Below are positions 1,496-64,000 of a stretch of 64,000 bases of DNA, one piece after another (positions within the stretch are counted from its first letter, which is position 1; every line of letters begins with the position of its first letter). The stretch covers positions 35,712,001 to 35,776,000 of the forward strand of contig CP086569.2 in the NCBI GenBank assembly GCA_009914755.4, read 5' to 3'. Source of the DNA: the human T2T-CHM13v2.0 reference genome, Homo sapiens. The notes under the pieces were generated by a model. That model was not told the origin of the DNA. It ran no database searches and saw only the letters and a list, made by a program, of their open reading frames with translations. The translations under genes and the position numbers were made by a program.

Positions 1496-1815
<320 letters not shown>

Positions 1816-2395: not shown

Positions 2396-2419
2396 TATAA
2401 TAATATACAGTATCATATA

Positions 2420-7256: not shown

Positions 7257-9676
<2,420 letters not shown>

Positions 9677-10959: not shown

Positions 10960-15764
<4,805 letters not shown>

Positions 15765-40710: not shown

Positions 40711-43700
40711 GGACTCGTTTGGAATGGTGTAGTATGCAATGCAATCGACTGGCAGGGAATCAAAAGGAATGTAATCGAATGGATTGGACTGGAATGCAAT
40801 GGACTCGAATAGATTGGAAGCGGAATGCAAAGGAATGGAATGGAATAGTATGGAATGGAATGGAAAGGAATGGAGTGGAATAGACTAGAGTGGAATGGAA
40901 TGGACTCGAAAGCAATGGTCTGGAATGGAACTTTCTTGAATGGACTGGAATCAAACGGAATGGAATGCAATGCAATCAAATGGCATGGAATAAAATAGAA
41001 TGAAAGAGAATCAAACGGAATTGAATCGAATGGAATCGAATGGATTGGAAAGGAATAGAATGGAATGGAATGGAATTGACTCAAATGGAATGGACTAGAA
41101 TGGAATGGATTCGAATGGAAGGCAAAGGAATGGAATCTATTGGAATGGACTGTAATGGAATGGAATGGAAGGGATTGGAATGGACTCGAATGGAATGGAC
41201 TGCAATAGAAAGGATTCGAATGGAATGAAAAAGAATTGAATGGAATAGAACAGAATGGAATCAAACCTCATGAAATAGAATGGAATAGAAAGGAATGGAA
41301 TGAAATGGAATGGAAAGGATTCGAATGGAATGCAATCGAATGGAATGCAATCGAATGGAATGGAATCGAACGGAATGGAATAAAATGGAAGAAAACTGGC
41401 AAGAAATGGAATCGAAATGAATGGAGTGTTAAGGAACGGACTCAAAAGGAATTGAATGTAATAGAATGGAGTGGAGTGGACTCGAATATAATGGACTGGA
41501 ATGGAATGAAATCACATGGAATGGGAACGAATGGAATGGAATGGAAAGGAATGGAATCGAATGGAAAGGAATCGAATGGAAGGGAATGAAATTGAATCAA
41601 CAGGAATGGAAGGGAATAGAATAGACGGTAATGGAATGGACTCGAATAGAATGGACACGAATGCTCAAATTGAATGGACTCGAATGGAATGGAAATGAAA
41701 GGAATGTCATCGAATGCAATTCAATCGATTGGAATGAAATCGCATAGGATGGAGTGGAATCAAATGGAATTGAATCGAAAGGAAAAGAAGCGAATTGACT
41801 GAAATGAAATGGAATGGAATTGAATGGAAAGTAATGCAACGGAATAGAATGGAATGAAATTTCACGGAATGGAATCAAACTGAATGGAATCAAATCAATG
41901 GAATATAATCAAATGGAATGGAAAGGAATTGAATGGAGTAGATTGTATTGGATGGGATTGGAATGAAATGTACTGGAAAGGACTCGAATTTCATGAAACG
42001 GAATGGAATGTATTAGAACGGAATGGACTCGAATGGAATTGAATGTCACGGAATGGCATCAAATGGAATGGCATCAATTGGAATGGAATCGAATGCAATG
42101 GAATGCTATGGAATGGAATGGAATGCATTGGAATGGAATGTCCTCTAATGGAATGGATTCGAGTGGAATGGAATCGAATATAATGGAGTCTAATGAAATG
42201 TAATTGAAAGGAATGGGATCCAATACAATGGAATATACTGGAATGTAATGTAATGAACTCGAATGTAATTGACTGGAATGGAATGTACATGAGTGGAATG
42301 TAATCGAATGGAAAGTAATCCAATGGAATAGAATCTAATGCAATAAAATCGACTCAAATAGAGTAGAATGTAATGGAATGGAGTGCAGTGCAATGGAATG
42401 GAATGGAATGGGATGGAATGGTATGGAATGGATAGTAATGGACTGGAGTGAAATGGACTGGAAAATAATGGACTCAAATTGAAAGGGCTCGAAAGGAATG
42501 GAGTCAAATGGAATGGTCTGGAATGGAATGAACACGAATGTAATGCAATCCAATAGAATGGAATCGAATGGCATGGAATATAAAGAAATGGAATCGAAGA
42601 GAATGGAAACAAATGGAATGGAATTGAATGGAATGGAATTGAATGGAATGGGAACGAATGGAGTGAAATTGTATGCAGTAGAAGAGAATAGAATGGAATG
42701 CAAGCGAAAGGAAAGGAATGGATTGGAATGGAATGGAATTCATTGGAATGGAAGGGAATGTAGTGTAATGGACAGGCCTGTAATAAAGTGGAATGCTACG
42801 GTCTCGAATGGAATAAAAATGTATGGAATGGAATGCAATGAAACGGAATCGAATGTCATAGAAGTAATGGAATGCAAAAAAATGGACTCCAAAATCATTG
42901 ATTGGAAAGGCTGGGTGTCGAAAGGAATTTACTCCAATGGAATGGAATCGAATGGAATGGAAGTGAATAGAATCGAACTAAATCGAATGGAATGGAATTG
43001 ATAGGAACGGAATGGAAAGGAATGCAATGATTTCGCATGGAATGGAATCGAATGGCATCGAATGGAATGGAATGGAATGCAATGGAATGGAATGTATTAA
43101 AATGTAATGAACTTTAATGGAATGTACTCGAATGGATTCGACTGGAATGGAATGTTCTCGAAGTGAATGGACTCCAATGGAATGGATTCGAAAGGAATGG
43201 AATCTAATGGAATGGAATTAAATGGAAATGAATCAAATTTAATAGAACGGAATTGAATTGAATGGAATCGAATGCAATGGAATCTAATGAAACGGAAAGG
43301 AAAGGAATGGAATGGAATGGAATGGAATGGGCTGGAATGGAATGGAATCGAAACGAATGGAATGGAATCGAACTGAAGAGACTGGAATGGAATACACTGG
43401 AATGGAAGGGAATGTAATGGAAGGTTCTCGAAAAAAATGTAATTGAAAGGAATGGAATTGAGTGGAACGGAATAGAGTCGAATGGAATTCAATGGAATGG
43501 AATGGACTAGAGTGAAATGGAATCGAACCACAAGGAATGGACAGGAATAGAATGGTCTCGAATTGAATGGAATCGTATGGAATGGCATCAAACGGAATGG
43601 AATGGACAGCCACGGAATGGAATGCACTCGAATGCAATGGAGTCGAAACTAATGGACTGGAATAGAATGGACTCGACTGGTACGGACTCCAATGGAATGG

Positions 43701-44223
43701 AATCGAATGGAAGGGAATCGAACGGAATGGACTCGAAGGGAAAAGACTGCAATGGAAAGGTCTCGAATGGAACGGAAATTAATGGAATGGAATGGAATCG
43801 AATGAAATGGAGTCAAAAGGAATGGAATCGAATGGCAAGAAATCGAATGTAATGGAATCGCAAGGAATTGATGTGAACGGAACGGAATGGAATGGAATCC
43901 AAAGGAATGGAATAGAATGGAATGGAATCGAATGGAAAGGACTCGAATGGAAATCACTCGAATAGAATGCAATTTAATAAAATAGGATCAAATGTAATGG
44001 AATGGAATGGAAAGGAATCGAAACGAAAGGAATGGAGACAGATGGAATGGAATGGAACAGAGAGCAATGGTATAGAATGGAATGGAATCATCTGGAATGG
44101 AATTGAATGGAATGGAATAACATGAAATGGAATGGAATGGAATGGAATGCCTTTGAATTAAATGGACTGGAATGGAATGGTCTCGAACAGAGTGGAATGG
44201 AAAGTGTTGGAATAGAATGGAAT
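40711..44223. repeat. DYZ1 unit 8 (3,513 bp), variant D-like
   Basis: Shares the 167-aa-ORF marker (42498..43001) and the 140-aa marker (42190..42612) with units 9 and 13. It differs from them in its distal third (176-aa ORF 43097..43627 against the 179-aa form). Confidence 0.8.
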
Positions 44224-47200
44224 GGACTCGTTTGGAATGGTGTAGTATGCAATGCAATCGACTGGCAGGGAATCAAAAGGAATGTAATCGAATGGATTGG
44301 ACTGGAATGCAATGGACTCGAATAGATTGGAAACGGAATGCAAAGGAATGGAATGGAATAGTATGGAATGGAATGGAAAGGAATGGAGTGGAATAGACTA
44401 GAGTGGAATGGAATGGACTGGAAAGCAATGGACTGGAATGGAACTTTCTTGAATGGACTGGAATCAAACGGAATGGAATGCAATGCAATCAAATGGCATG
44501 GAATAAAATAGAATGAAAGAGAATCAAATGGAATTGAATCGAATGGAATCGAATGGATTGGAAAGGAATAGAATGGAATGGAATGGAATTGACTCAAATG
44601 GAATGGACTAGAATGGAATGGATTCGAATGGAAGGCAAAGGAATGGAATCTATTGGAATGGACTGTAATGGAATGGAATGGAAGGGATTGGAATGGACTC
44701 GAATGGAATGGACTGCAATAGAAAGGATTCGAATGGAATGAAAAAGAATTGAATGGAATAGAACAGAATGGAATCAAACCTCATGAAATAGAATGGAATA
44801 GAAAGGAATGGAATGAAATCGAATGGAAAGGATTCGAATGGAATGCAATCGAATGGAATGCAATCGAATGGAATGGAATCGAACGGAATGGAATAAAATG
44901 GAAGAAAACTGGCAAGAAATGGAATCGAAATGAATGGAGTGTTAAGGAACGGACTCAAAAGGAATTGAATGTAATAGAATGGAGTGGAGTAGACTCGAAT
45001 ATAATGGACTGGAATGGAATGAAATCACATGGAATGGGAACGAATGGAATGGAATGGAAAGGAATGGAATCGAATGGAAAGGAATCGAATGGAAGGGAAT
45101 GAAATTGAATCAACAGGAATGGAAGGGAATAGAATAGACGGTAATGGAATGGAATCGAATAGAATGGACACGAATGCTCAAATTGAATGGACTCGAATGG
45201 AATGGAAATGAAAGGAATGTCATCGAATGCAATTCAATCGATTGGAATGAAATCGCATAGGATGGAGTGGAATCAAATGGAATTGAATCGAAAGGAAAAG
45301 AAGCGAATTGACTGAAATGAAATGGAATGGAATTGAATGGAAAGTAATGCAACGGAATAGAATGGAATGAAATTTCACGGAATGGAATCAAACTGAATGG
45401 AATCAAATCAATGGAATATAATCAAATGGAATGGAAAGGAATTGAATGGAGTAGATTGTATTGGATGGGATTGGAATGAAATGTACTGGAAAGGACTCGA
45501 ATTTCATGAAACGGAATGGAATGTATTAGAACGGAATGGACTCGAATGGAATTGAATGTCACGGAATGGCATCAAATGGAATGGCATCAATTGGAATGGA
45601 ATCGAATGCAATGGAATGCTATGGAATGGAATGGAATGCATTGGAATGGAATGTCCTCTAATGGAATGGATTCGAGTGGAATGGAATCGAATATAATGGA
45701 GTCTAATGAAATGGAATTGAAAGGAATGGGATCCAATACAATGGAATATACTGGAATGTAATGTAATGAACTCGAATGTAATTGACTGGAATGGAATGTA
45801 CATGAGTGGAATGTAATCGAATGGAAAGTAATCCAATGGAATAGAATCTAATGCAATAAAATCGACTCAAATAGAGTAGAATGTAATGGAATGGAGTGCA
45901 GTGCAATGGAATGGAATGGAATGGGATGGAATGGTATGGAATGGATAGTAACGGACTGGAGTGAAATGGACTGGAAAATAATGGACTCAAATTGAAAGGG
46001 CTCGAAAGGAATGGAGTCAAATGGAATGGTCTGGAATGGAATGAACACGAATGTAATGCAATCCAATAGAATGGAATCGAATGGCATGGAATATAAAGAA
46101 ATGGAATCGAAGAGAATGGAAACAAATGGAATGGAATTGAATGGAATGGAATTGAATGGAATGGGAACGAATGGAGTGAAATTGTATGCAGTAGAAGAGA
46201 ATAGAATGGAATGCAAGCGAAAGGAAAGGAATGGATTGGAATGGAATGGAATTCATTGGAATGGAAGGGAATGTAGTGTAATGGACAGGCCTGGAATAAA
46301 GTGGAATGCTACGGTCTCGAATGGAATAAAAATGTATGGAATGGAATGCAATGAAACGGAATCGAATGTCATAGAAGTAATGGAATGCAAAAAAATGGAC
46401 TCCAAAATCATTGACTGGAAAGGCTGGGTGTCGAAAGGAATTTACTCCAATGGAATGGAATCGAATGGAATGGAAGTGAATAGAATCGAACTAAATCGAA
46501 TAGAATGGAATTGATAGGAACGGAATGGAAAGGAATGCAATGATTTCGCATGGAATGGAATCGAATGGCATCGAATGGAATGGAATGGAATGCAATGGAA
46601 TGGAATGTATTAAAATGTAATGAACTTTAATGGAATGTACTCGAATGGATTCGACTGGAATGGAATGTTCTCGAAGTGAATGGACTCCAATGGAATGGAT
46701 TCGAAAGGAATGGAATCTAATGGAATGGAATTAAATGGAAATGAATCAAATTGAATAGAACGGAATTGAATTGAATGGAATCGAATGCAATGGAATCTAA
46801 TGAAACGGAAAGGAAAGGAATGGAATGGAATGGAATGGAATGGGCTGGAATGGAATGGAATCGAAACGAATGGAATGGAATCGAACTGAAGAGACTGGAA
46901 TGGAATACACTGGAATGGAAGGGAATGTAATGGAAGGTTCTCGAAAAAATGTAATTGAAAGGAATGGAATTGAGTGGAACGGAATAGAGTCGAATGGAAT
47001 TCAATGGAATGGAATGGACTAGAGTGAAATGGAATCGAACCACAAGGAATGGACAGGAATAGAATGGTCTCGAATTGAATGGAATCGTATGGAATGGCAT
47101 CAAACGGAATGGAATGGACAGCCACGGAATGGAATGCACTCGAATGCAATGGAGTCGAAACTAATGGACTGGAATAGAATGGACTCGACTGGTACGGACT

Positions 47201-47735
47201 CCAATGGAATGGAATCGAATGGAAGGGAATCGAACGGAATGGACTCGAAGGGAAAAGACTGCAATGGAAAGGTCTCGAATGGAATGGAAATTAATGGAAT
47301 GGAATGGAATCGAATGAAATGGAGTCAAAAGGAATGGAATCGAATGGCAAGAAATCGGATGTAATGGAATCGCAAGGAATTGATGTGAACGGAACGGAAT
47401 GGAATGGAATCCAAAGGAATGGAATAGAATGGAATGGAATCGAATGGAAAGGACTCGAATGGAAATCACTCGAATAGAATGCAATTTAATAAAATAGGAT
47501 CAAATGTAATGGAATGGAATGGAAAGGAATCGAAACGAAAGGAATGGAGACAGATGGAATGGAATGGAACAGAGAGCAATGGTATAGAATGGAATGGAAT
47601 CATCTGGAATGGAATTGAATGGAATGGAATAACATGAAATGGACTGGAATGGAATGGAATGCCCTTGAATTAAATGGACTGGAATGGAATGGACTCGAAC
47701 AGAGTGGAATGGAAAGTGTTGAAATAGAATGGAAT
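44224..47735. repeat. DYZ1 unit 9 (3,512 bp), variant D
   Basis: Near-identical to unit 13 at a 14,063-bp offset (ORFs 45703, 46011 and 46610 recur at 59766, 60074 and 60673). Confidence 0.85.
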
Positions 47736-50700
47736 GGACTCGTTTGGAATGGTCTAGTATGCAATGCAATCGACTGGCAGGGAATCAAAAGGAATGTAAT
47801 CGAATGGATTGGACTGGAATGCAATGGACTCGAATAGATTGGAAACGGAATGCAAAGGAATGGAATGGAATAGTATGGAATGGAATGGAAAGGAATGGAG
47901 TGGAATAGACTAGAGTGGAATGGAATGGACTCGAAAGCAATGGACTGGAATGGAACTTTCTTGAATGGACTGGAATCAAACGGAATGGAATGTAATGCAA
48001 TCAAATGGCATGGAATAAAATAGAATGAAAGAGAATCAAATGGAATTGAATCGAATGGAATCGAATGGATTGGCAAGGAATAGAATGGAATGGAATGGAA
48101 TTGACTCAAATGGAATGGACTAGAATGGAATGGATTCGAATGGAAGGCAAAGGAATGGAATCTATTGGAATGGACTGTAATGGAATGGAATGGAAGGGAT
48201 TGGAATGGACTCGAATGGAATGGACTGCAATAGAAAGGATTCGAATGGAATGAAAAAGAATTGAATGGAATAGAACAGAATGGAATCAAATCGAATGAAA
48301 TGGAATGGAATAGAAAGGAATGGAATGAAATGGAATGGAAAGGATTCGAATGGAATGCAATCGAATGGACTGGAATCGAACGGAATGGAATAAAATGGAA
48401 GAAAACTGGCAAGAAATGGAATCGAAATGAATGGAGTGTTATGGAACGGACTCAAAAGGAATTGAATGTAATAGAATGGAGTGGAGTGGACTCCAATATA
48501 ATAGACTGGAATGGAATGAAATCACATGGAATGGGAACGAATGGAATGGAATGGAAAGGAATGGAATCGAATGGAAAGGAATCGAATGGAAGGGAATGAA
48601 ATTGAATCAACAGGAATGGAAAGGAGTAGAATAGACGGTAATGGAATGGGCTCGAATAGAATGGACACGAATGCTCAAATTAAATGGACTCGAATGGAAT
48701 GGAAACGAAAGGAATGTCATCGAATGGAATTGAATCGATTGGAATGAAATCACATAGAATGGAGTGGAATCAAATGGAATTGAATCGAAAGGAAAGGAAG
48801 CGAATGGACTGAAATGAAATGGAATGGAATTGAATGGAAATTAATGCAATGGAATAGAATGGAAAGAAATTTCACGGAATGGAATCAAACTGAATGGAAT
48901 CAAATCAATGGAATATAATCAAATGGAATGGAAAGGAATTGAATGGAGTAGATTGGATTGGATGGGATTGGAATGAAATGTACTGGAAAGGACTCGAATT
49001 TCATGAAACGGAATGGAATGAATTAGAACGGAATGGACTCGAATGGAATGGAATATCACGGAATGGCATCAAATGGAATGGCATCAATTGGAATGGAATC
49101 GAATGCAATGGAATGCTATGGAATGGAATGGAATGCATTGGAATGGAATGTCCTCTAATGGAATGGATTCGAGTGGAATGGAATCGAATATAATGGAGTC
49201 TAATGAAATGGAATTGAAAGGAATGGGATCCAATACAATGGAATATACTGGAATGTAATGTAATGAACTCGAATGTAATTGACTGGAATGGAATGTACAT
49301 GAATGGAATGTAATCGAATGGAAAGTAATCCAATGGAATAGAATCTAATGCAATAAAATCGACTCAAGTAGAGTAGAATATAATGGAATGGAGTGCAGTG
49401 CAATGGAATGGAATGGAATGGAATGCAATGGAATGGAATGGAATGGAATGGAATGGAATGTGATGGAATGGTATGGAATGGATAGTAATGGACTGGAGTG
49501 AAATGGACTGGAAAGGAATGGACTCAAATTGAAAGGGCTCGAAAGGAATGGAGTCAAATGGAATGGTCTGGAATGGAATGAACACGAATGTAATGCAATC
49601 CAATAGAATGGAATCGAATGGCATGGAATATAAAGAAATGGAATCGAAGAGAATGGAAACAAATGGAATGGAATTGAATGGAATGGAATTGAATGGAATG
49701 GGAACGAATGGAGTGAAATTGTATGCAGTAGAAGAGAATAGAATGGAATGCAAGCGAAAGGAAAGGAATGGATTGGAATGGAATGGAATTCATTGGAATG
49801 GAAGGGAATGTAGTGTAATGGACAGGCCTGGAATAAAGTGGAATGCTACGGTCTCGAATGGAATAAAAATGTATGGAATGGAATGCAATGAAACGGAATC
49901 GAATGTCATAGAATGTAATGGAATGCAAAAAAATGGAATCCAAAATCATTGACTGGAAAGGCTGGGTGTCGAAAGGAATTGACTCCAATGGAATGGAATC
50001 GAATGGCATGGAAGTGAATAGAATGGAACTAAATCGAATGGAATGGAATTGATAGGAACGGAATGGAAAGGAATGCAATGATTTGGCATGGAATGGAATC
50101 GAATGGCATCGAATGGAATGGAATGGAATGCAATGGAATGGAATGTATTAGAATGTAATGAACTTTAATGGAATGTACTCGAATGGATTCAACTGGAATG
50201 GAATGTTCTCGAAGTGAATGGACTCCAATGGAATGGATTCGAAAGGAATGGAATCTAATGGAATGGAATTAAATGGAAATGAATCAAATTGAATAGAACG
50301 GAATTGAATTGAATGGAATCGAATGCAATGGAATCTAAAGAAAAGGAAAGGAAAGGAATGGAATGGATTGGAATGGAATGGGCTGGAATGGAATGGAATC
50401 GAAACGAATGGAATGGAATCGAACTGAAGAGACTGGAATGGAATGCACTGGAATGGAAGGGAATGTAATGGAAGGTTCTCAAGAAAAATGGAATCGAAAG
50501 GAATGGAATTGAATGGAACGGAATAGAGTCGAATGGAATTCAATGGAATGGAATGGACTAGAGTGAAATGGAATCGAACCACAAGGAATGGACAGGAATA
50601 GAATGGTCTCGAATTGAATGGAATCGTATGGAATGGCATCAAACGGAATGGAATGGACAGCCACGGAATGGAATGCACTCGAATGCAATGGAGTCGACAC

Positions 50701-51274
50701 TAACGGAGTGGAATAGAATGGACTCGACTGGTACGGACTCCAATGGAATGGAATCGAATGGAAGGGTATCGAACGGAATGGACTCGAAGGGAAAAGACTG
50801 CAATGGAAAGGTCTCGAATGGAATGGAAATTAATGGAATGGAATGGAATCGAATGAAATGGAGTCAAAAGGAATGGAATCGAATGGCAAGAAATCGAATG
50901 TAATGGAATCGCAAGGAATTGAAGTGAACGGAACGGAATGCAATGGAATCCAAAGGAATGGAATAGAATGGAATGGAATCGAATGGAAAGGACTCGAATG
51001 GAAATCACTCGAATAGAATGCAATTTAATAAAATAGGATCAAATGTAATGGAATGGAATGGAAAGGAATCGAAACGAAAGGAATGGAGACAGATGGAATG
51101 GAATGGAACAGAGAGCAATGGTATAGAATGGAATGGAATCATCTGGAATGGAATTGAATGGAATGGAATAACATGAAATGGACTGGAATGGAATGGAATG
51201 CCCTTGAATTAAATGGACTGGAATGGAATGGACTCGAACAGAGTGGAATGGAAAGTGTTGAAATAGAATGGAAT
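47736..51274. repeat. DYZ1 unit 10 (3,539 bp), variant E
   Basis: Near-identical to partial unit 14 at a 14,063-bp offset (ORFs 47600, 48894, 49200 and 49345 recur at 61663, 62957, 63263 and 63408). Confidence 0.85.
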
Positions 51275-54200
51275 GGACTCGTTTGGAATGGTCTAGTATG
51301 CAATGCAATCGACTGGCAGGGAATCAAAAGGAATGTAATCGAATGGATTGGACTGGAATGCAATGGACTCGAATAGATTGGAAACGGAAAGCAAAGGAAT
51401 GGAATGGAATAGTATGGAATGGAATGGAAAGGAATGGAGTGGAATAGACTAGAGTGGAATGGAATGGACTGGAAAGCAATGGACTGGAATGGAACTTTCT
51501 TGAATGGACTGGAATCAAACGGAATGGAATGCAATGCAATCAAATGGCATGGAATAAAATAGAATGAAAGAGAATCAAATGGAATTGAATCGAATGGAAT
51601 CGAATGGATTGGAAAGGAATAGAATGGAATGGAACGGAATTGACTCAAATGGAATGGACTAGAATGGAATGGATTCGAATGGAAGGCAAACGAATGGAAT
51701 CTATTGGAATGGACTGTAATGGAATGGAATGGAAGGGATTGGAATGGACTCGAATGGAATGGACTGCAATAGAAAGGATTCGAATGGAATGAAAAAGAAT
51801 TGAATGAAATAGAAGAGAATGGAAACAAATCGAATGAAATGGAATGGAAGAGAAAGGAATGGAATGAAATGGAATGGAAAGGATTCGAATGGAATGCAAT
51901 CGAATGGAATGGAATCGAACGGAATGGAATAAAATGGAAGAAAACTGGCAAGAAATGGAATCGAAATGAATGGAGTGTTATGGAACGGACTCAAAAGGAA
52001 TTGAATGTAATAGAATGGAGTGGAGTGGACTCGAATATAATGGACTGGAATGGAATGAAATCACATGGAATGGGAACGAATGGAATGGAATGGAAAGGAA
52101 TGGAATCGAATGGAAAGGAATCGAATGGAAGGGAATGAAATTGAATCAACAGGAATGGAAGGGAGTAGAATAGACGGTAATGGAATGGACTCGAATAGAA
52201 TGGACACGAATGCTCAAATTGAATGGACTCGAATGGAATGGAAACGAAAGGAATGTCATCGAATGGAATTGAATCGATTGGAATGAAATCGCATAGAATG
52301 GAGTGGAATCAAAAGGAATTGAATCGAAAGGAAAGGAAGCGAATGGACTGAAATGAAATGGAATGGAATTGAATGGAAAGTAATGCAATGGAATAGAATG
52401 GAACGAAATTTCACGGAATGGAATCAAACTGAATGGAATCAAATCAATGGAATATAATCAAATGGAATGGAAAGGAATTGAACGGAGTAGATTGGATTGG
52501 ATGGGATTGGAATGAAATGTACTGGAAAGGACTCGAAATTCATGAAACGGAATGGAATGAACTGGAACGGAATGGAATCGAATGGAATGGAATGTCATGT
52601 AATGGCATCAAATGGAATGGAATCGAATGCGATGGAATGCTATGGAATGGAATGGAATGCATAGGAATGGAATGTCCTCTAATGGAATGTATTCGAGTGG
52701 AATGGAATCGAATATAATGGAGTCTAATGAAATGGAATTGAAAGGAATGGGACCGAATACAATGGAATAAACTGGAATGTAATGTAATGAACTCGAATGT
52801 AATTGACTGGAATGGAATGTACATGAATGGAATGTAATCGAATGGAAAGCAATCCAATGGAATAGAATCTAATGCAATAAAATCGACTCAAATAGAGTAG
52901 AATGTAATGGAATGGAGTGCAGTGCAATGGAATGGAATGGAATGCAACGGAATGGAATGGAATGGAATGGAATGGGATGGAATGGTATGGAATGGATAGT
53001 AATGGACTGGAGTGAAATGGACTGGAAAAGAATGGACTCAAATTGAAAGGGCTCGAAAGGAATGGAGTCAAATGGAATGGTCTGGAATGGAATGAACACG
53101 AATGTAATGCAATCCAATAGAATGGAATCGAATGGCATAGAATATAAAGAAATGGAATCGAAGAGAATGGAAACAAATGGAATGGAATTGAATGGAATGG
53201 AATTGAATGGAATGGGAACGAATGGAGTGAAATTGTATGCAGTAGAAGAGAATAGAATGGAATGCAAGCGAAAGGAAAGGAATGGATTGGAATGGAATGG
53301 AATTCATTGGAATGGAAGGGAATGTAGTGTAATGGACAGGCCTGGAATAAAGTGGAATGCTACGGTCTCGAATGGAATAAAAATGTATGGAATGGAATGC
53401 AATGAAATGGAATCGAATGTCATAGAATGTAATGGAATGCAAAAAAATGGAATCCAAAATCATTGACTGGAAAGGCTGGGTGTCGAAAGGAATTGACTCC
53501 AATGGAATGGAATCGAATGGCATGGAAGTGAATAGAATGGAACTAAATCGAATGGAATGGAATTGATAGGAACGGAATGGAAAGGAATGCAATGATTTGG
53601 CATGGAATGGAATCGAATGGCATCGAATGGAATGGAATGGAATGCAATGGAATGGAATGTATTAGAATGTAATGAACTTTAATGGAATGTACTCGAATGG
53701 ATTCGACTGGAATGGAATGTTCTCGAAGTGAATGGACTCCAATGGAATGGATTCGAAAGGAATGGAATCTAATGGAATGGAATTAAATGGAAATGAATCA
53801 AATTGAATAGAACGGAATTGAATTGAATGGAATCGAATGCAATGGAATCTAATGAAAAGGAAAGGAAAGGAATGGAATGGATTGGAATGGAATGGGCTGG
53901 AATGGAATGGAATCGAAACGAATGGAATGGAATCGAACTGAAGAGACTGGAATGGAATGCACTGGAATGGAAGGGAATGTAATGGAAGGTTCTCAAGAAA
54001 AATGGAATCGAAAGGAATGGAATTGAATGGAACGGAATAGAGTCGAATGGAATTCAATGGAATGGAATGGACTAGAGTGAAATGGAATCGAACCACAAGG
54101 AATGGACAGGAATAGAATGGTCTCGAATTGAATGGAATCGTATGGAATGGCATCAAACGGAATGGAATGGACAGCCACGGAATGGAATGCACTCGAATGC

Positions 54201-54788
54201 AATGGAGTCGACACTAACGGAGTGGAATAGAATGGACTCGACTGGTACGGACTCCAATGGAATGGAATCGAATGGAAGGGTATCGAACGGAATGGACTCG
54301 AAGGGAAAAGACTGCAATGGAAAGGTCTCGAATGGAATGGAAATTAATGGAATGGAATGGAATCGAATGAAATGGAGTCAAAAGGAATGGAATCGAATGG
54401 CAAGAAATCGAATGTAATGGAATCGCAAGGAATTGAAGTGAACGGAACGGAATGCAATGGAATCCAAAGGAATGGAATAGAATGGAATGGAATCGAATGG
54501 AAAGGACTCGAATGGAAATCACTCGAATAGAATGCAATTTAATAAAATAGGATCAAATGTAATGGAATGGAATGGAAAGGAATCGAAACGAAAGGAATGG
54601 AGACAGATGGAATGGAATGGAACAGAGAGCAATGGTATAGAATGGAATGGAATCATCTGGAATGGAATTGAATGGAATGGAATAACATGAAATGGACTGG
54701 AATGGAATGGAATGCCCTTGAATTAAATGGACTGGAATGGAATGGACTCGAACAGAGTGGAATGGAAAGTGTTGAAATAGAATGGAAT
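51275..54788. repeat. DYZ1 unit 11 (3,514 bp), variant F
   Basis: Near-identical to unit 12 at a 3,514-bp offset (150-aa ORF 52724..53176 recurs as 56238..56690; 176-aa ORF 50148..50678 recurs as 53662..54192). Confidence 0.85.
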
Positions 54789-57700
54789 GGACTCGTTTGG
54801 AATGGTCTAGTATGCAATGCAATCGACTGGCAGGGAATCAAAAGGAATGTAATCGAATGGATTGGACTGGAATGCAATGGACTCGAATAGATTGGAAACG
54901 GAAAGCAAAGGAATGGAATGGAATAGTATGGAATGGAATGGAAAGGAATGGAGTGGAATAGACTAGAGTGGAATGGAATGGACTGGAAAGCAATGGACTG
55001 GAATGGAACTTTCTTGAATGGACTGGAATCAAACGGAATGGAATGCAATGCAATCAAATGGCATGGAATAAAATAGAATGAAAGAGAATCAAATGGAATT
55101 GAATCGAATGGAATCGAATGGATTGGAAAGGAATAGAATGGAATGGAACGGAATTGACTCAAATGGAATGGACTAGAATGGAATGGATTCGAATGGAAGG
55201 CAAATGAATGGAATCTATTGGAATGGACTGTAATGGAATGGAATGGAAGGGATTGGAATGGACTCGAATGGAATGGACTGCAATAGAAAGGATTCGAATG
55301 GAATGAAAAAGAATTGAATGGAATAGAACAGAATGGAATCAAATCGAATGAAATGGAATGGAAGAGAAAGGAATGGAATGAAATGGAATGGAAAGGATTC
55401 GAATGGAATGCAATCGAATGGAATGGAATCGAACGGAATGGAATAAAATGGAAGAAAACTGGCAAGAAATGGAATCGAAATGAATGGAGTGTTATGGAAC
55501 GGACTCAAAAGGAATTGAATGTAATAGAATGGAGTGGAGTGGACTCGAATATAATGGACTGGAATGGAATGAAATCACATGGAATGGGAACGAATGGAAT
55601 GGAATGGAAAGGAATGGAATCGAATGGAAAGGAATCGAATGGAAGGGAATGAAATTGAATCAACAGGAATGGAAGGGAGTAGAATAGACGGTAATGGAAT
55701 GGACTCGAATAGAATGGACACGAATGCTCAAATTGAATGCACTCGAATGGAATGGAAACGAAAGGAATGTCATCGAATGGAATTGAATCGATTGGAATGA
55801 AATCGCATAGAATGGAGTGGAATCAAATGGAATTGAATCGAAAGGAAAGGAAGCGAATGGACTGAAATGAAATGGAATGGAATTGAATGGAAAGTAATGC
55901 AATGGAATAGAATGGAACGAAATTTCACGGAATGGAATCAAACTGAATGGAATCAAATCAATGGAATATAATCAAATGGAATGGAAAGGAATTGAATGGA
56001 GTAGATTGGATTGGATGGGATTGGAATGAAATGTACTGGAAAGGACTCGAAATTCATGAAACGGAATGGAATGAACTGGAACGGAATGGACTCGAATGGA
56101 ATGGAATGTCATGGAATGGCATCAAATGGAATGGAATCGAATGCGATGGAATGCTATGGAATGGAATGGAATGCATTGGAATGGAATGTCCTCTAATGGA
56201 ATGTATTCGAGTGGAATGGAATCGAATATAATGGAGTCTAATGAAATGGAATTGAAAGGAATGGGACCGAATACAATGGAATAAACTGGTATGTAATGTA
56301 ATGAACTCGAATGTAATTGACTGGAATGGAATGTACATGAATGGAATGTAATCGAATGGAAAGCAATCCAATGGAATAGAATCTAATGCAATAAAATCGA
56401 CTCAAATAGAGTAGAATGTAATGGAATGGAGTGCAGTGCAATGGAATGGAATGGAATGCAACGGAATGGAATGGAATGGAATGGAATGGGATGGAATGGT
56501 ATGGAATGGATAGTAATGGACTGGAGTGAAATGGACTGGAAAAGAATGGACTCAAATTGAAAGGGCTCGAAAGGAATGGAGTCAAATGGAATGGTCTGGA
56601 ATGGAATGAACACGAATGTAATGCAATCCAATAGAATGGAATCGAATGGCATGGAATATAAAGAAATGGAATCGAAGAGAATGGAAACAAATGGAATGGA
56701 ATTGAATGGAATGGAATTGAATGGAATGGGAACGAATGGAGTGAAATTGTATGCAGTAGAAGAGAATAGAATGGAATGCAAGCGAAAGGAAAGGAATGGA
56801 TTGGAATGGAATGGAATTCATTGGAATGGAAGGGAATGTAGTGTAATGGACAGGCCTGGAATAAAGTGGAATGCTACGGTCTCGAATGGAATAAAAATGT
56901 ATGGAATGGAATGCAATGAAACGGAATCGAATGTCATAGAATGTAATGGAATGCAAAAAAATGGACTCCAAAATCATTGACTGGAAAGGCTGGGTGTCGA
57001 AAGGAATTGACTCCAATGGAATGGAATCGAATGGAATGGAAGTGAATAGAATCGAACTAAATCGAATGGAATGGAATTGATAGGAACGGAATGGAAAGGA
57101 ATGCAATGATTTGGCATGGAATGGAATCGAAAGGCATCGAATGGAATGGAATGGAATGCAATGGAATGGAATGTATTAGAATGTAATGAACATTAATGGA
57201 AAGTACTCGAATGGATTCGACTGGAATGGAATGTTCTGGAAGTGAATGGACTCCAATGGAATGGATTCGAAAGGAATGGAATCGAACGGAATGGAATTAA
57301 ACGGAAATGAATCAAATAGAATAGAACGGAATTGAATTGAATGGAATCGAATGCAATGGAATCTAATGAAACGGAAAGGAATGGAATGGAATGGGCTGGA
57401 ATGGAATGGAATCGAAACGAATGGAATGGAATCGAACTGAAGAGACTGGAATGGAATGCACTGGAATGGAAGGGAATGTAATGGAAGGTTCTCGAAAAAA
57501 ATGGAATCGAAAGGAATGGAATTGAATGGAACGGAATAGAGTCGAATGGAATTCAATGGAATGGAATGGACTAGAGTGAAATGGAATCGAACCACAAGGA
57601 ATGGACAGGAATAGAATGGTCTCGAATTGAATGGAATCGTATGGAATGGCATCAAACGGAATGGAATGGACGGCCACGGAATGGAATGCACTCGAATGCA

Positions 57701-58287
57701 ATGGAGTCGAAACTAATGGACTGGAATAGAATGGACTCGACTGGTACGGACTCCAATGGAATGGAATCGAATGGAAGGGAATCGAACGGAATGGACTCGA
57801 AGGGAAAAGACTGCAATGGAAAGGTCTCGAATGGAATGGAAATTAATGGAATGGAATGGAATCGAATGAAATGGAGTCAAAAGGAATGGAATCGAATGGC
57901 AAGAAATCGAATGTAATGGAATCGCAAGGAATTGATGTGAACGGAACGGAATGGAATGGAATCCAAAGGAATGGAATAGAATGGAATGGAATCGAATGGA
58001 AAGGACTCGAATGGAAATCACTCGAATAGAATGCAATTTAATAAAATAGGATCAAATGTAATGGAATGGAATGGAAAGGAATCGAAACGAAAGGAATGGA
58101 GACAGATGGAATGGAATGGAACAGAGAGCAATGGTATAGAATGGAATGGAATCATCTGGAATGGAATTGAATGGAATGGAATAATATGAAATGGAATGGA
58201 ATGGAATGGAATGCCCTTGAATTAAATGGACTGGAATGGAATGGACTCGAACAGAGTGGAATGGAAAGTGTTGAAATAGAATGGAAT
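54789..58287. repeat. DYZ1 unit 12 (3,499 bp), variant F
   Basis: See unit 11. Confidence 0.85.
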
Positions 58288-61200
58288 GGACTCGTTTGGA
58301 ATGGTCTAGTATGCAATGCAATCGACTGGCAGGGAATCAAAAGGAATGTAATCGAATGGATTGGACTGGAATGCAATGGACTCGAATAGATTGGAAACGG
58401 AAAGCAAAGGAATGGAATGGAATAGTATGGAATGGAATGCAAAGGAATGGAGTGGAATAGACTAGAGTGGAATGGAATGGACTCGAAAGCAATGGACTGG
58501 AATGGAACTTTCTTGAATGGACTGGAATCAAACGGAATGGAATGCAATGCAATCAAATGGCATGGAATAAAATAGAATGAAAGAGAATCAAATGGAATTG
58601 AATCGAATGGAATCGAATGGATTGGAAAGGAATAGAATGGAATGGAATGGAATTGACTCAAATGGAATGGACTAGAATGGAATGGATTCGAATGGAAGGC
58701 AAAGGAATGGAATCTATTGGAATGGACTGTAATGGAATGGAATGGAAGGGATTGTAATGGACTCGAATGGAATGGACTGCAGTAGAAAGGATTCGAATGG
58801 AATGAAAAAGAATTGAATGGAATAGAACAGAATGGAATCAAATCGAATGAAATGGAATGGAATAGAAAGGAATGGAATGAAATGGAATGGAAAGGATTCG
58901 AATGGAATGCAATCGAATGGAATGAAATCGAATGGAATGGAATCGAACGGAATGGAATAAAATGGAAGAAAACTGGCAAGAAATGGAATCGAAATGAATG
59001 GAGTGTTACGGAACGGACTCAAAAGGAATTGAATGTAATAGAATGGAGTGGAGTGGACTCGAATATAATGGACTAGAATGGAATGAAATCACATGGAATG
59101 GGAACGAATGGAATGGAATGGAAAGGAATGGAATCGAATGGAAAGGAATCGAATGGAAGGGAATGAAATTGAATCAACAGGAATGGAAGGGAGTAGAATA
59201 GACGGTAATGGAATGGACTCGAATAGAATGGACACGAATGCTCAAATTGAATGGACTCGAATGGAATGGCAACGAAAGGAATGTCATCGAATGGAATTGA
59301 ATCGTTGGAATGAAATCACATAGAATGGAGTGGAATCAAATGGAATTGAATCGAAAGGAAAAGAAGCGAATTGACTGAAATGAAATGGAATGGAATTGAA
59401 TGGAAAGTAATGCAACGGAATAGAATGGAATGAAATTTCACGGAATGGAATCAAACTGAATGGAATCAAATCAATGGAATATAATCAAATGGAATGGAAA
59501 GGAATTGAATGGAGTAGATTGTATTGGATGGGATTGGAATGAAATGTACTGGAAAGGACTCGAATTTCATGAAACGGAATGGAATGTATTAGAACGGAAT
59601 GGACTCGAATGGAATTGAATGTCACGGAATGGCATCAAATGGAATGGCATCAATTGGAATGGAATCGAATGCAATGGAATGCTATGGAATGGAATGGAAT
59701 GCATTGGAATGGAATGTCCTCTAATGGAATGGATTCGAGTGGAATGGAATCGAATATAATGGAGTCTAATGAAATGGAATTGAAAGGAATGGGATCCAAT
59801 ACAATGGAATATACTGGAATGTAATGTAATGAACTCGAATGTAATTGACTGGAATGGAATGTACATGAGTGGAATGTAATCGAATGGAAAGTAATCCAAT
59901 GGAATAGAATCTAATGCAATAAAATCGACTCAAATAGAGTAGAATGTAATGGAATGGAGTGCAGTGCAATGGAATGGAATGGAATGGGATGGAATGGTAT
60001 GGAATGGATAGTAATGGACTGGAGTGAAATGGACTGGAAAATAATGGACTCAAATTGAAAGGGCTCGAAAGGAATGGAGTCAAATGGAATGGTCTGGAAT
60101 GGAATGAACACGAATGTAATGCAATCCAATAGAATGGAATCGAATGGCATGGAATATAAAGAAATGGAATCGAAGAGAATGGAAACAAATGGAATGGAAT
60201 TGAATGGAATGGAATTGAATGGAATGGGAACGAATGGAGTGAAATTGTATGCAGTAGAAGAGAATAGAATGGAATGCAAGCGAAAGGAAAGGAATGGATT
60301 GGAATGGAATGGAATTCATTGGAATGGAAGGGAATGTAGTGTAATGGACAGGCCTGTAATAAAGTGGAATGCTACGGTCTCGAATGGAATAAAAATGTAT
60401 GGAATGGAATGCAATGAAACGGAATCGAATGTCATAGAAGTAATGGAATGCAAAAAAATGGACTCCAAAATCATTGACTGGAAAGGCTGGGTGTCGAAAG
60501 GAATTTACTCCAATGGAATGGAATCGAATGGAATGGAAGTGAATAGAATCGAACTAAATCGAATGGAATGGAATTGATAGGAACGGAATGGAAAGGAATG
60601 CAATGATTTCGCATGGAATGGAATCGAATGGCATCGAATGGAATGGAATGGAATGCAATGGAATGGAATGTATTAAAATGTAATGAACTTTAATGGAATG
60701 TACTCGAATGGATTCGACTGGAATGGAATGTTCTCGAAGTGAATGGACTCCAATGGAATGGATTCGAAAGGAATGGAATCTAATGGAATGGAATTAAATG
60801 GAAATGAATCAAATTGAATAGAACGGAATTGAATTGAATGGAATCGAATGCAATGGAATCTAATGAAACGGAAAGGAAAGGAATGGAATGGAATGGAATG
60901 GAATGGGCTGGAATGGAATGGAATCGAAACGAATGGAATGGAATCGAACTGAAGAGACTGGAATGGAATACACTGGAATGGAAGGGAATGTAATGGAAGG
61001 TTCTCGAAAAAATGTAATTGAAAGGAATGGAATTGAGTGTAACGGAATAGAGTCGAATGGAATTCAATGGAATGGAATGGACTAGAGTGAAATGGAATCG
61101 AACCACAAGGAATGGACAGGAATAGAATGGTCTCGAATTGAATGGAATCGTATGGAATGGCATCAAACGGAATGGAATGGACAGCCACGGAATGGAATGC

Positions 61201-61798
61201 ACTCGAATGCAATGGAGTCGAAACTAATGGACTGGAATAGAATGGACTCGACTGGTACGGACTCCAATGGAATGGAATCGAATGGAAGGGAATCGAACGG
61301 AATGGACTCGAAGGGAAAAGACTGCAATGGAAAGGTCTCGAATGGAATGGAAATTAATGGAATGGAATGGAATCGAATGAAATGGAGTCAAAAGGAATGG
61401 AATCGAATGGCAAGAAATCGGATGTAATGGAATCGCAAGGAATTGATGTGAACGGAACGGAATGGAATGGAATCCAAAGGAATGGAATAGAATGGAATGG
61501 AATCGAATGGAAAGGACTCGAATGGAAATCACTCGAATAGAATGCAATTTAATAAAATAGGATCAAATGTAATGGAATGGAATGGAAAGGAATCGAAACG
61601 AAAGGAATGGAGACAGATGGAATGGAATGGAACAGAGAGCAATGGTATAGAATGGAATGGAATCATCTGGAATGGAATTGAATGGAATGGAATAACATGA
61701 AATGGACTGGAATGGAATGGAATGCCCTTGAATTAAATGGACTGGAATGGAATGGACTCGAACAGAGTGGAATGGAAAGTGTTGAAATAGAATGGAAT
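58288..61798. repeat. DYZ1 unit 13 (3,511 bp), variant D
   Basis: See unit 9. Confidence 0.85.
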
Positions 61799-64000
61799 GG
61801 ACTCGTTTGGAATGGTCTAGTATGCAATGCAATCGACTGGCAGGGAATCAAAAGGAATGTAATCGAATGGATTGGACTGGAATGCAATGGACTCGAATAG
61901 ATTGGAAACGGAATGCAAAGGAATGGAATGGAATAGTATGGAATGGAATGGAAAGGAATGGAGTGGAATAGACTAGAGTGGAATGGAATGGACTCGAAAG
62001 CAATGGACTGGAATGGAACTTTCTTGAATGGACTGGAATCAAACGGAATGGAATGTAATGCAATCAAATGGCATGGAATAAAATAGAATGAAAGAGAATC
62101 AAATGGAATTGAATCGAATGGAATCGAATGGATTGGAAAGGAATAGAATGGAATGGAATGGAATTGACTCAAATGGAATGGACTAGAATGGAATGGATTC
62201 GAATGGAAGGCAAAGGAATGGAATCTATTGGAATGGACTGTAATGGAATGGAATGGAAGGGATTGGAATGGACTCGAATGGAATGGACTGCAATAGAAAG
62301 GATTCGAATGGAATGAAAAAGAATTGAATGGAATAGAACAGAATGGAATCAAATCGAATGAAATGGAATGGAATAGAAAGGAATGGAATGAAATGGAATG
62401 GAAAGGATTCGAATGGAATGCAATCGAATGGACTGGAATCGAACGGAATGGAATAAAATGGAAGAAAACTGGCAAGAAATGGAATCGAAATGAATGGAGT
62501 GTTATGGAACGGACTCAAAAGGAATTGAATGTAATAGAATGGAGTGGAGTGGACTCCAATATAATAGACTGGAATGAAATGAAATCACATGGAATGGGAA
62601 CGAATGGAATGGAATGGAAAGGAATGGAATCGAATGGAAAGGAATCGAATGGAAGGGAATGAAATTGAATCAACAGGAATGGAAAGGAGTAGAATAGACG
62701 GTAATGGAATGGGCTCGAATAGAATGGACACGAATGCTCAAATTAAATGGACTCGAATGGAATGGAAACGAAAGGAATGTCATCGAATGGAATTGAATCG
62801 ATTGGAATGAAATCACATAGAATGGAGTGGAATCAAATGGAATTGAATCGAAAGGAAAGGAAGCGAATGGACTGAAATGAAATGGAATGGAATTGAATGG
62901 AAATTAATGCAATGGAATAGAATGGAAAGAAATTTCACGGAATGGAATCAAACTGAATGGAATCAAATCAATGGAATATAATCAAATGGAATGGAAAGGA
63001 ATTGAATGGAGTAGATTGGATTGGATGGGATTGGAATGAAATGTACTGGAAAGGACTCGAATTTCATGAAACGGAATGGAATGAATTAGAACGGAATGGA
63101 CTCGAATGGAATGGAATATCACGGAATGGCATCAAATGGAATGGCATCAATTGGAATGGAATCGAATGCAATGGAATGCTATGGAATGGAATGGAATGCA
63201 TTGGAATGGAATGTCCTCTAATGGAATGGATTCGAGTGGAATGGAATCGAATATAATGGAGTCTAATGAAATGGAATTGAAAGGAATGGGATCCAATACA
63301 ATGGAATATACTGGAATGTAATGTAATGAACTCGAATGTAATTGACTGGAATGGAATGTACATGAATGGAATGTAATCGAATGGAAAGTAATCCAATGGA
63401 ATAGAATCTAATGCAATAAAATCGACTCAAGTAGAGTAGAATATAATGGAATGGAGTGCAGTGCAATGGAATGGAATGGAATGGAATGCAATGGAATGGA
63501 ATGGAATGGAATGGAATGGATTGTGATGGAATGGTATGGAATGGATAGTAATGGACTGGAGTGAAATGGACTGGAAAGGAATGGACTCAAATTGAAAGGG
63601 CTCGAAAGGAATGGAGTCAAATGGAATGGTCTGGAATGGAATGAACACGAATGTAATGCAATCCAATAGAATGGAATCGAATGGCATGGAATATAAAGAA
63701 ATGGAATCGAAGAGAATGGAAACAAATGGAATGGAATTGAATGGAATGGAATTGAATGGAATGGGAACGAATGGAGTGAAATTGTATGCAGTAGAAGAGA
63801 ATAGAATGGAATGCAAGCGAAAGGAAAGGAATGGATTGGAATGGAATGGAATTCATTGGAATGGAAGGGAATGTAGTGTAATGGACAGGCCTGGAATAAA
63901 GTGGAATGCTACGGTCTCGAATGGAATAAAAATGTATGGAATGGAATGCAATGAAACGGAATCGAATGTCATAGAATGTAATGGAATGCAAAAAAATGGA
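61799..64000. repeat. DYZ1 unit 14, partial (variant E), runs off the window end
   Basis: See unit 10. Confidence 0.85.

What the first reader, a model, noticed from the sequence alone, without database searches (positions are those of the whole stretch)
44224..64000. 14,063-bp four-unit periodicity (D-E-F-F) in the distal half of the DYZ1 block
Unit 9 matches unit 13, and unit 10 matches partial unit 14, at an offset of exactly 14,063 bp. Translations recur with 0-1 differences: 45703 with 59766, 46610 with 60673, 47600 with 61663, 48894 with 62957.

Units 11 and 12 form an internal F-F pair. Unit 8 is D-like but differs in its distal third, so it marks the boundary of this super-repeat.

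Together with the 7.09-kb dimer upstream, the DYZ1 block is a mosaic of locally amplified multi-unit segments, not a uniform array.
Basis: seen in the sequence. Interest (0 to 1): 0.55.

Follow-up and report, generated by a model that had tools for sequence, protein, structure and literature searches.

The report
Recent four-unit duplication inside DYZ1 satellite
Within an ordinary stretch of human Y-chromosome satellite DNA (DYZ1), a piece four repeat units long has recently been copied next to itself, which is the expected footprint of unequal exchange in such arrays and not a new kind of structure.

Summary
The window runs from a DYZ2/HSat1B array (1-16,627) into a DYZ1/HSat3 array (16,628-64,000; 14 units of about 3.5 kb).

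The 14,063-bp match is real but narrower than claimed. Positions 45,262-49,937 equal 59,325-64,000 with 7 substitutions and no indels (99.85%). In-register DYZ1 comparisons of that length here typically differ at about 95 sites.

The match starts about 1,040 bp inside unit 9, not at 44,224, and is cut by the window end. Only about 1.3 periods are visible, so no periodicity is shown. Lag-4 identity upstream is at background level.

Unit 13 is a hybrid. Its first 1,037 bp are non-D, and it switches to D alleles within a 37-bp interval. That fits the junction of a four-unit unequal exchange.

Unit 8 is D over its whole length.

The "mosaic of local amplifications" reading is supported. However, unequal exchange, gene conversion and whole-unit gains and losses in Yq12 are already published. 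Verdict: ordinary, low interest.

The parts
1..16627 (.). DYZ2 / HSat1B array (context). It has ~2,416-2,420-bp units, each with a >85% AT stretch, an antisense diverged Alu fragment and a GC-richer part. The array ends abruptly at 16,627.
   Evidence: Offsets of 2,420 and 2,418 are among the top shared-40-mer offsets. Clusters of GGCC sites recur every 2,416-2,420 bp. GC is 22.7% with 1 CpG per 154 bp, and the Alu-like sequence is read directly at 1,600-1,810. These values match the published 24% GC, 1 CpG per 150 bp and 2.4-kb unit.
16628..64000 (+). DYZ1 / HSat3A6 array, GGAAT-rich on the + strand, with 14 units. Unit starts are 16628, 19407, 22951, 26500, 30044, 33573, 37142, 40711, 44224, 47736, 51275, 54789, 58288 and 61799. 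Unit 1 is truncated and divergent. Unit 14 is cut by the window end.
   Evidence: There are 2,992 TGGAA against 5 TTCCA. Unit anchors are spaced 3,499-3,569 bp apart. Each unit has one HaeIII site. GC is 38.6% with 1 CpG per 34.6 bp. Primer sites Y1.1 and Y1.2 match perfectly once per unit and lie 154 bp apart.
45262..49937 (+). Visible part of the left copy of the 14,063-bp duplication. It covers the distal 2,474 bp of unit 9 and the first 2,202 bp of unit 10.
   Evidence: It differs from 59,325-64,000 by 7 substitutions and 0 indels. This is the lowest difference count of any lag-4 window.
59325..64000 (+). Visible part of the right copy. It covers the distal 2,474 bp of unit 13 and all of the partial unit 14, and is cut by the window end.
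   Evidence: Searches give the alignment. Six of the 7 differences are private singletons, three in each copy.
59325..59361 (+). Junction (crossover) interval in unit 13. To its left, unit 13 carries non-D alleles at 6 of 6 D-diagnostic substitution sites. To its right, it carries D alleles at every diagnostic site. The equivalent interval in unit 9 is 45,262-45,298.
   Evidence: Table of D-diagnostic columns, and the sharp change in difference density at 45,261.
58288..59324 (+). Proximal 1,037 bp of unit 13. It is not D-type by substitutions and has no close relative in the window. It is inferred to be the tail of the left copy, with its twin expected near 72.35-73.39 kb, outside the window.
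   Evidence: It is 97.78% identical to the proximal part of u9 and 97.88% to u8, but 98.5-98.9% to u2, u6, u7 and u10-u12. The best tile matches are only 98.0-98.4%.
40711..47735 (+). D-D pair (units 8 and 9) at a lag of 3,513 bp. Both share a 45-bp deletion that defines the D type. The distal part of unit 13 carries it too.
   Evidence: u8-u9 are 99.46% identical, with 19 substitutions and 1 indel. The D deletion junction is found only at 42,387, 45,900 and 59,963, and in none of 39 external DYZ1 fragments.
49516..56921 (+). Left coordinates 49,516-53,407 match 53,030-56,921. It is out of phase with the unit boundaries: distal u10 equals distal u11, and proximal u11 is close to proximal u12.
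   Evidence: There are 16 differences in 3,892 bp (99.59%). The best part, 49,516-51,690, has 4 differences. Differences are dense on both sides of the run.

Best explanation
This is the edge of a human Yq12 DYZ1 (HSat3A6) array next to a DYZ2 array. The '14,063-bp periodicity' is one recent tandem duplication whose length is four DYZ1 units (3,512 + 3,539 + 3,514 + 3,499 bp, minus a 1-bp indel).

It most likely arose by unequal homologous exchange between sister chromatids, or within one chromatid, misaligned by four units. The crossover fell in a 37-bp interval about 1,040 bp into a unit. It joined the proximal part of the unit then lying four units downstream (now 58,288-59,324) to the distal part of a D-type unit. 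This created the hybrid unit 13. Unit 13 is followed by a second copy of unit 10 and, by prediction, of units 11-12 and the hybrid's proximal part, ending near coordinate 73,387.

Since then each copy has gained about three private point mutations.

Shown:
- the near-identity of the two stretches
- the sharp single breakpoint
- the hybrid unit
- the balanced private mutations
- the integer-unit lag

Inferred:
- the exchange mechanism
- the extent beyond 64,000
- the age

The same process at lags of 1 and 2 units explains the D-D, C-C, 3,514-bp and 7,093-bp patches. The sequence has no coding or RNA signal, so the 'mechanism' is one of array turnover, not of function.
For: Identity as DYZ1/DYZ2:
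- Composition, CpG density, unit lengths, one HaeIII site per unit and an Alu-bearing 2.42-kb AT-rich neighbour agree with published values.
- DYZ1 primer sites occur once per unit with a 154-bp product.
- Human-contaminant contigs match at 97.7-99.1%.

The duplication:
- There are 7 substitutions and 0 indels in 4,676 bp, against a median of 95 differences for in-register windows.
- Non-sister units differ by 3-9 indel events, so zero indels also argues for a recent event.
- Six of the 7 differences are singletons private to one unit of the 14, split 3:3 between the copies.

The junction:
- Unit 13 switches from non-D to D alleles between 59,324 and 59,362.
- Its proximal 1,037 bp are less like u9 (97.78%) than like most other units.

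Local origin:
- The D-type 45-bp deletion and the F-type deletions are absent from 39 external DYZ1 fragments.

Mechanism is plausible from the literature:
- T2T-Y reports iterative tandem duplications consistent with unequal exchange, and sister chromatid exchanges in Yq12 in about 15% of Strand-seq libraries.
- A pedigree study reports about one de novo whole-unit DYZ2 structural variant (2,416-4,839 bp) per Y transmission.
Against: The right end of the duplication lies outside the window. A length of exactly one period, and a copy number of exactly two, are therefore predictions and not observations.

One of the 7 differences (46,294 G / 60,357 T) shares its T with unit 8. It needs a back-mutation or a small conversion in unit 9. 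Exchange of short tracts has therefore also acted here, and it could blur the history.

The 15-bp segment at alignment columns 610-624 is present in u8, u9 and u13, and also in u3 and u5. The proximal part of unit 13 is therefore D-like in that one structural character, despite non-D substitutions.

No read-level data are available to exclude an assembly error.
Confidence: 0.72

Rival explanations
1. This is a genuine multi-copy 14.06-kb higher-order period. The four-unit block has been amplified several or many times downstream of the window, and the window catches only its first 1.3 copies. The mechanism would be repeated unequal exchange at the same register.
For: The left edge of the match is in the window and the right edge is not. 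Other patches in the same block already exceed two copies. The 7,093 diagonal runs for 8.2 kb, about 2.15 periods. The 3,514 diagonal runs for 3.9 kb, more than one period. T2T-Y describes 'iterative' tandem duplications in Yq12.
Against: No lag-4 excess is seen upstream. Nothing in the window requires more than two copies. The other local amplifications seen here reach only 2-3 copies.
Confidence: 0.18
2. This is long-tract non-reciprocal gene conversion. A tract of at least 4.7 kb from units 9-10 overwrote pre-existing units lying four units away, with no change in copy number.
For: Interlocus gene conversion is documented in Yq12. In one pedigree study, 29% of de novo SNVs had identical donors elsewhere in Yq12. 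In another, 17% of events were classed as conversion. One of the 7 differences looks conversion-like. A single sharp left boundary is also compatible with the edge of a conversion tract.
Against: The tract would have to be at least 4.7 kb, cross a unit boundary, and transfer every indel character of both the D and E types with no residual patchwork. The conversion events reported in Yq12 were detected as single or clustered SNVs.
Confidence: 0.06
3. This is an assembly artefact: a false local duplication or a mis-join in a satellite that is hard to assemble.
For: Yq12 is repeatedly described as the hardest region of the Y chromosome to assemble. Near-identical repeats are the typical site of such errors.
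Against: The two copies differ at 7 substitution sites, split evenly and each private to one copy. This is what true paralogous copies show. The junction is a clean homologous crossover in register. There are no homopolymer-type differences.
Confidence: 0.04

Closest known systems
Human DYZ1 (HSat3A6) arrays of Yq12, as resolved in T2T-Y (Rhie et al. 2023) and in 43 Y assemblies (Hallast et al. 2023)
   Same: The unit is ~3.5 kb and pentamer-derived, with one HaeIII site. Fragments of 3,569 bp are present. GC is 38% with 1 CpG per 35 bp. The array alternates with DYZ2. Units are about 98% alike, the units at the array edge are more divergent, and local tandem duplications are attributed to unequal exchange.
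   Different: Nothing differs in kind. The papers I read describe duplications at the scale of blocks (up to 5 Mb) and identity gradients. They do not itemise 1-, 2- and 4-unit patches at an array edge, so this particular 14-kb event is a local detail not singled out there.
Higher-order repeats of alpha satellite (for example the DYZ3 34-mer)
   Same: A multi-unit period in which copies one period apart are much more alike (99.85%) than neighbouring units (~98%).
   Different: An alpha-satellite HOR is defined by many tandem copies that are homogenised across an array. Here only 1.33 copies are visible, the pattern is absent upstream, and the contrast is between 98% and 99.85% instead of about 70-80% against more than 95%.
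De novo whole-unit gains and losses and interlocus gene conversion in Yq12 (Porubsky et al. 2025; 2026 population-scale Y preprint)
   Same: Integer-unit structural changes in register, and a high point-mutation/conversion rate of 3.86e-7 per bp per generation. Together these account for both the duplication and its 7 later differences.
   Different: The structural events observed in pedigrees affected 1-2 DYZ2 units (2,416-4,839 bp). This event is 4 DYZ1 units (14,063 bp) and is old enough to have accumulated mutations.

Membership tests
Human DYZ1 / HSat3A6 | Tandem unit of ~3.5-3.6 kb released by HaeIII (one GGCC per unit; 3,569-bp fragments most abundant) | tested here: met
   GGCC sites are spaced 3,549, 3,544, 3,549, 3,534, 3,569, 3,539, 3,513, 3,537, 3,514 and 3,514 bp, then 819 + 2,679 bp (an extra site in unit 12), then 3,537 bp.
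Human DYZ1 / HSat3A6 | Built from diverged copies of the pentamer GGAAT/CATTC, with strong strand asymmetry | tested here: met
   2,992 TGGAA against 5 TTCCA, and GC skew of about +0.55 throughout 16.6-64 kb. Indels between units are multiples of 5, mostly 15 bp.
Human DYZ1 / HSat3A6 | GC about 38% and about 1 CpG per 35 bp | tested here: met
   38.6% GC and 1 CpG per 34.6 bp, against the values.
Human DYZ1 / HSat3A6 | Carries the Y-specific DYZ1 PCR target (primers Y1.1/Y1.2, 154-bp product) | tested here: met
   Both primers match with 0 mismatches in most units (one search lists 0 mismatches for Y1.2 in 9 units, 1-2 in four), and the product 21,355-21,508 is 154 bp. The primer sequences and the expected product size come from my own memory (Kogan et al. 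1987). I could not confirm them in the paper library.
Human DYZ1 / HSat3A6 | High identity to the published DYZ1 consensus or to a complete human Y assembly | not testable with these tools
   No human reference is available in the tools. Indirect evidence only: 39 DYZ1-bearing contaminant contigs from metagenomes and bacterial assemblies align at up to 97.7-99.1%. This agrees with the contamination described.
Human DYZ2 / HSat1B (flanking array) | Unit of ~2.4 kb made of a >85% AT stretch, an old Alu fragment and a GC-richer part; GC about 24% and 1 CpG per 150 bp | tested here: met
   Period of 2,416-2,420 bp. GC is 22.7% with 1 CpG per 154 bp. The per-200-bp GC profile alternates between 0.10-0.18 and 0.3-0.5. 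An antisense Alu is read at about 1,600-1,810. No Rfam SRP/Alu hit reached threshold.
Higher-order (multi-unit) periodic repeat | Several tandem copies of the multi-unit period, each far more like its neighbours one period away than like the units within a period | tested here: inconclusive
   One pair is seen at 99.85% against a 98% background, but only 1.33 periods are visible. Upstream lag-4 identities are at background, 97.8-98.1%. The downstream sequence is outside the window.
Tandem duplication by unequal homologous exchange | Lag equal to a whole number of units, copies in register, and a single crossover point that creates a hybrid unit at the junction | tested here: met
   The lag is the sum of units 9-12 (14,064 bp, or 14,063 after a 1-bp indel at 45,241). 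The allele switch falls within 37 bp. The hybrid nature of unit 13 is shown.
Tandem duplication by unequal homologous exchange | Near-identity on the diagonal extends for exactly one period | not testable with these tools
   This would require sequence up to about 73.4 kb. The window ends at 64,000.

The most novel reading that the evidence does not exclude
The 14.06-kb four-unit block may be the first copy of a locally fixed DYZ1 'super-repeat' that continues for many periods beyond the window. This DYZ1 array would then have its own higher-order period above the 3.5-kb unit, analogous to alpha-satellite HORs. Such a period could serve as an array-specific or haplogroup-specific marker within Yq12.
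Probability: 0.15. Interest if true: 0.3.

Novelty: already known. Interest (0 to 1): 0.12.

Why it matters
It matters little beyond bookkeeping. The patch is a clean, base-resolved example of how Yq12 satellite arrays turn over: an in-register exchange at a four-unit offset, with the crossover located to 37 bp and followed by a balanced set of private mutations.

Such patches are useful as unique anchors for assembling, validating and comparing DYZ1 arrays between Y haplogroups. Combined with the measured Yq12 mutation rate, they allow rough dating of local amplifications. Here that gives about 1,900 generations, which is an inference.

The finding does not change the picture of Yq12 already published from complete Y assemblies.

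Tried and rejected
1. A whole-window megablast self-comparison returned only one HSP, the 7.1-kb dimer, and was useless for mapping. I replaced it with 500-bp tiles, a MAFFT alignment of the 14 units and pairwise global alignments.

2. Global ungapped autocorrelation is dominated by pentamer multiples and does not show the long periods. Shared 40-mer offsets do show them.

3. I looked for independent long DYZ1 sequence to test whether the D-E-F-F order recurs. One scan each of metagenome and genome contigs gave 39 fragments.
   - Most are 1-7 kb.
   - The three contigs of 52-55 kb are held only as pieces of at most 11.8 kb, with many indels (229 gap positions against the window).
   - They therefore cannot test a 14-kb lag. 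They served only to confirm the repeat family and to show that the D and F indel types are not widespread.

4. Rfam found nothing at gathering thresholds. An Alu 3'-half consensus search found nothing. The Alu fragment was instead read directly.

5. Literature confirmation of the Y1.1/Y1.2 primer sequences failed, so that point rests on my memory.

6. Protein-level tools were not used.

7. I rejected the idea that unit 13 is simply another D unit. I also rejected the idea that unit 8 marks the super-repeat boundary.


Full report
**What the window is**

The first 16,627 bases are an extremely AT-rich satellite. It has 22.7% GC and 1 CpG per 154 bp, with a 2,416-2,420-bp period. Each unit holds a long stretch of more than 85% AT, a diverged antisense Alu fragment and a GC-richer part.

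From 16,628 to the end, the + strand is GGAAT-rich: 2,992 TGGAA against 5 TTCCA. This part has 38.6% GC and 1 CpG per 34.6 bp. It is organised in 14 units of 3,499-3,569 bp, each with one HaeIII site.

These figures match the published descriptions of DYZ2/HSat1B and DYZ1/HSat3A6 almost to the digit:
- 24% against 38% GC
- 1 CpG per 150 bp against 1 per 35 bp
- 2.4-kb and 3.5-kb units
- 3,569-bp HaeIII fragments
- alternating arrays

The DYZ1 sexing primers that I recall as Y1.1 and Y1.2 match about once per unit (perfectly in most) and delimit 154 bp. I could not confirm the primer sequences in the paper library, so that point rests on memory.

A 23-mer from the unit recovers 39 human-contaminant contigs from metagenomes and bacterial assemblies. 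They align to the window at up to 97.7-99.1%. T2T-Y reported this kind of contamination.

The window is the boundary between a DYZ2 array and a DYZ1 array in human Yq12.

**Checking the observation**

Shared 40-mers peak at offsets of 7,093 (6,386 k-mers) and 14,063 (4,637 k-mers), followed by one-unit offsets.

A global alignment of 40,711-49,937 against 54,775-64,000 lists every difference.
- Differences are dense up to 45,261. The stretch 43,314-45,261 has about 36 in 1.95 kb, at offset 14,064.
- After a 1-bp indel at 45,241 and substitutions at 45,255 and 45,261, only 7 substitutions and no indel occur up to 49,937/64,000.
- The true match is therefore 45,262-49,937 = 59,325-64,000, which is 4,676 bp at 99.85%.

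The background matters here, because any two DYZ1 units in this block are already 97.6-98.5% identical. Over all 248,088 in-register windows of 4,676 alignment columns at lags of 1-12 units, the median is 95 differences. Windows with 12 or fewer differences exist only on the 7,093 diagonal and on this one. The signal is real and far beyond chance.

Over the whole unit, however, u9 is even closer to u8 (99.46%).

1. *The boundary is 45,262, not 44,224.* The proximal 1,037 bp of units 9 and 13 are 97.78% identical. That is lower than unit 13's identity to most other units, which is 98.5-98.9% against u2, u6, u7 and u10-u12.

2. *Unit 13 is a hybrid.* At the six D-diagnostic substitution sites between alignment columns 721 and 1037 it carries the non-D allele. 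From column 1075 onward it carries the D allele at every diagnostic site, including the 45-bp deletion. The switch lies between 59,324 and 59,362, equivalent to 45,261-45,299 in unit 9.

3. *Unit 8 is a full-length D unit.* It differs from u9 by 19 substitutions and 1 indel. Only its last ~300 columns carry a small excess of four differences. Units 8 and 9 are a D-D pair. Unit 8 does not mark the boundary of the 14-kb repeat.

4. *'F-F' is only partly right.* Units 11 and 12 are 98.97% identical overall. They have 12 differences in the proximal 2,100 columns and 25 in the distal 1,500, which is background. The real feature is a lag-3,514 run from 49,516 to 53,407 with 16 differences (99.59%).

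5. *No periodicity is shown.* Lag-4 identity upstream is at background: u5-u9, u6-u10, u7-u11 and u8-u12 are all 97.8-98.1%. The second copy is cut by the window end after 4.7 kb. What is seen is one pair of copies.

**How it most likely arose**

Several features point to a homologous but misaligned exchange:
- The lag equals the summed lengths of units 9-12.
- The two stretches are in perfect register, with no indel. Non-sister units differ by 3-9 indel events.
- There is a single sharp crossover point inside a unit.
- The unit at the junction is a hybrid.

On the male-specific Y, such an exchange would be between sister chromatids or within one chromatid.

In this model the ancestral order was u8(D) u9(D) u10(E) u11 u12 X. 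An exchange paired column ~1,040 of X with column ~1,040 of u9. It produced [u9 distal, u10, u11, u12, X proximal] twice in tandem. The window shows the first copy entirely and the first third of the second copy.

The model explains why 57.0-59.3 kb has no close relative in the window. Its twin would lie at about 71-73.4 kb.

Of the 7 differences, six are singletons private to one of the 14 units, three in each copy. That is the expectation for independent mutation after a duplication. The seventh (46,294 G / 60,357 T) shares its T with unit 8. It suggests a small conversion or back-mutation in unit 9.

*Age (an inference).* With the pedigree-based Yq12 rate of 3.86e-7 per bp per generation, 7 differences in 4,676 bp correspond to about 1,900 generations. 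The Poisson range is roughly 800-4,000. With a euchromatic rate the age would be more than tenfold greater.

The process itself is well documented in Yq12:
- iterative tandem duplications attributed to unequal exchange, and frequent sister chromatid exchanges
- about one whole-unit DYZ2 gain or loss per transmission, and interlocus gene conversion

**The wider block**

The same process at other lags accounts for the rest of the array edge:
- u2 = u4 (99.80%) and u3 = u5 (99.91%) form the 7,093-bp dimer. Its diagonal runs for 8.2 kb, about 2.15 periods.
- u6 = u7 (99.50%).
- u8 = u9 (99.46%).
- The 3,514-bp run described above.

Unit types are distinguished by indels in multiples of 5 bp, mostly 15 bp.

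The D-type 45-bp deletion and the F-type deletions are absent from all 39 external fragments, whereas other indel states are common in them. This supports a local origin for these types, with the caveat that the sample is small.

Unit 1, which abuts DYZ2, is the most divergent (96.3-97.3%) and carries a 685-bp deletion. This fits the published observation that peripheral units of Yq12 arrays are more divergent than central ones.

**Rival explanations**

- *Multi-copy 14-kb super-repeat continuing downstream.* This cannot be excluded, because the right end is unseen. It would involve the same mechanism, iterated.
- *Long-tract gene conversion.* It could give one sharp boundary. But it would need a tract of at least 4.7 kb that crosses a unit boundary and transfers all indel characters.
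- *Assembly artefact.* The balanced private variants and the clean in-register junction argue against it. Only reads can exclude it.

**Comparison with what is known, and verdict**

This is a member of DYZ1 in every feature that could be tested. The local structure is what unequal-exchange models and the complete-Y papers lead one to expect.

It resembles an alpha-satellite HOR only in that copies one multi-unit period apart are more alike than neighbouring units. The defining multi-copy periodicity was not shown.

The 'mosaic' interpretation is supported, while the 'D-E-F-F super-repeat from 44,224' is not supported as stated. Novelty is nil at the level of kind, and interest is low.

Noticed in passing
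window 16,627/16,628 and unit 1 (16,628-19,406): The DYZ2-to-DYZ1 junction is abrupt. It falls inside the AT-rich part of a DYZ2 unit (...CATAATATATCATAT|GGACTCCTTTGGAATGG...). The first DYZ1 unit is only 2,779 bp and is the most divergent (96.3-97.3% to the others). It has a 685-bp deletion that removes the HaeIII and Y1.1 site, plus four smaller deletions of 15-35 bp.
   Followed up: partly
window ~9,600-12,400: One DYZ2 unit has an AT-rich stretch about 1.28 kb longer than its neighbours. The GGCC clusters are spaced 3,698 bp apart here instead of ~2,420 bp, and GC falls to 0.07-0.17 over 2.8 kb. The next unit also lacks one of the four clustered GGCC sites.
   Followed up: no
window 19,394-34,673: A two-unit (7,093-bp) A-B-A-B amplification. 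u2 = u4 at 99.80% and u3 = u5 at 99.91%. The diagonal runs for 8.2 kb (about 2.15 periods) with 20 differences. The offset changes to 7,073 near 26 kb because of a 20-bp deletion in unit 5.
   Followed up: partly
window 46,294 / 60,357 / 42,781: The only non-private difference between the two 14-kb copies lies in the Y1.1 primer site. Units 8 and 13 carry T (primer-strand TTACAGG), while unit 9 and all other units carry G. This suggests a D-lineage variant that was later reverted in unit 9 by a short conversion or back-mutation.
   Followed up: partly
window 57,672: Unit 12 has a second HaeIII site (GGCC), created by an A-to-G change relative to 43,608. It splits that unit into fragments of 819 and 2,679 bp.
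   Followed up: no
L034-L039 (for example Actinomadura cremea JCM 3308 BMRF01000076.1, Streptomyces kurssanovii JCM 4388 BMTN01000077.1) and L001-L033: Contigs of 1-3.6 kb deposited as bacterial genome sequence are human DYZ1, 97.7-99.1% identical to the window. So are 33 stretches of metagenome contig, drawn from 30 contigs of which three are 52-55 kb long. This human-Y contamination of microbial databases was already noted by T2T-Y.
   Followed up: partly
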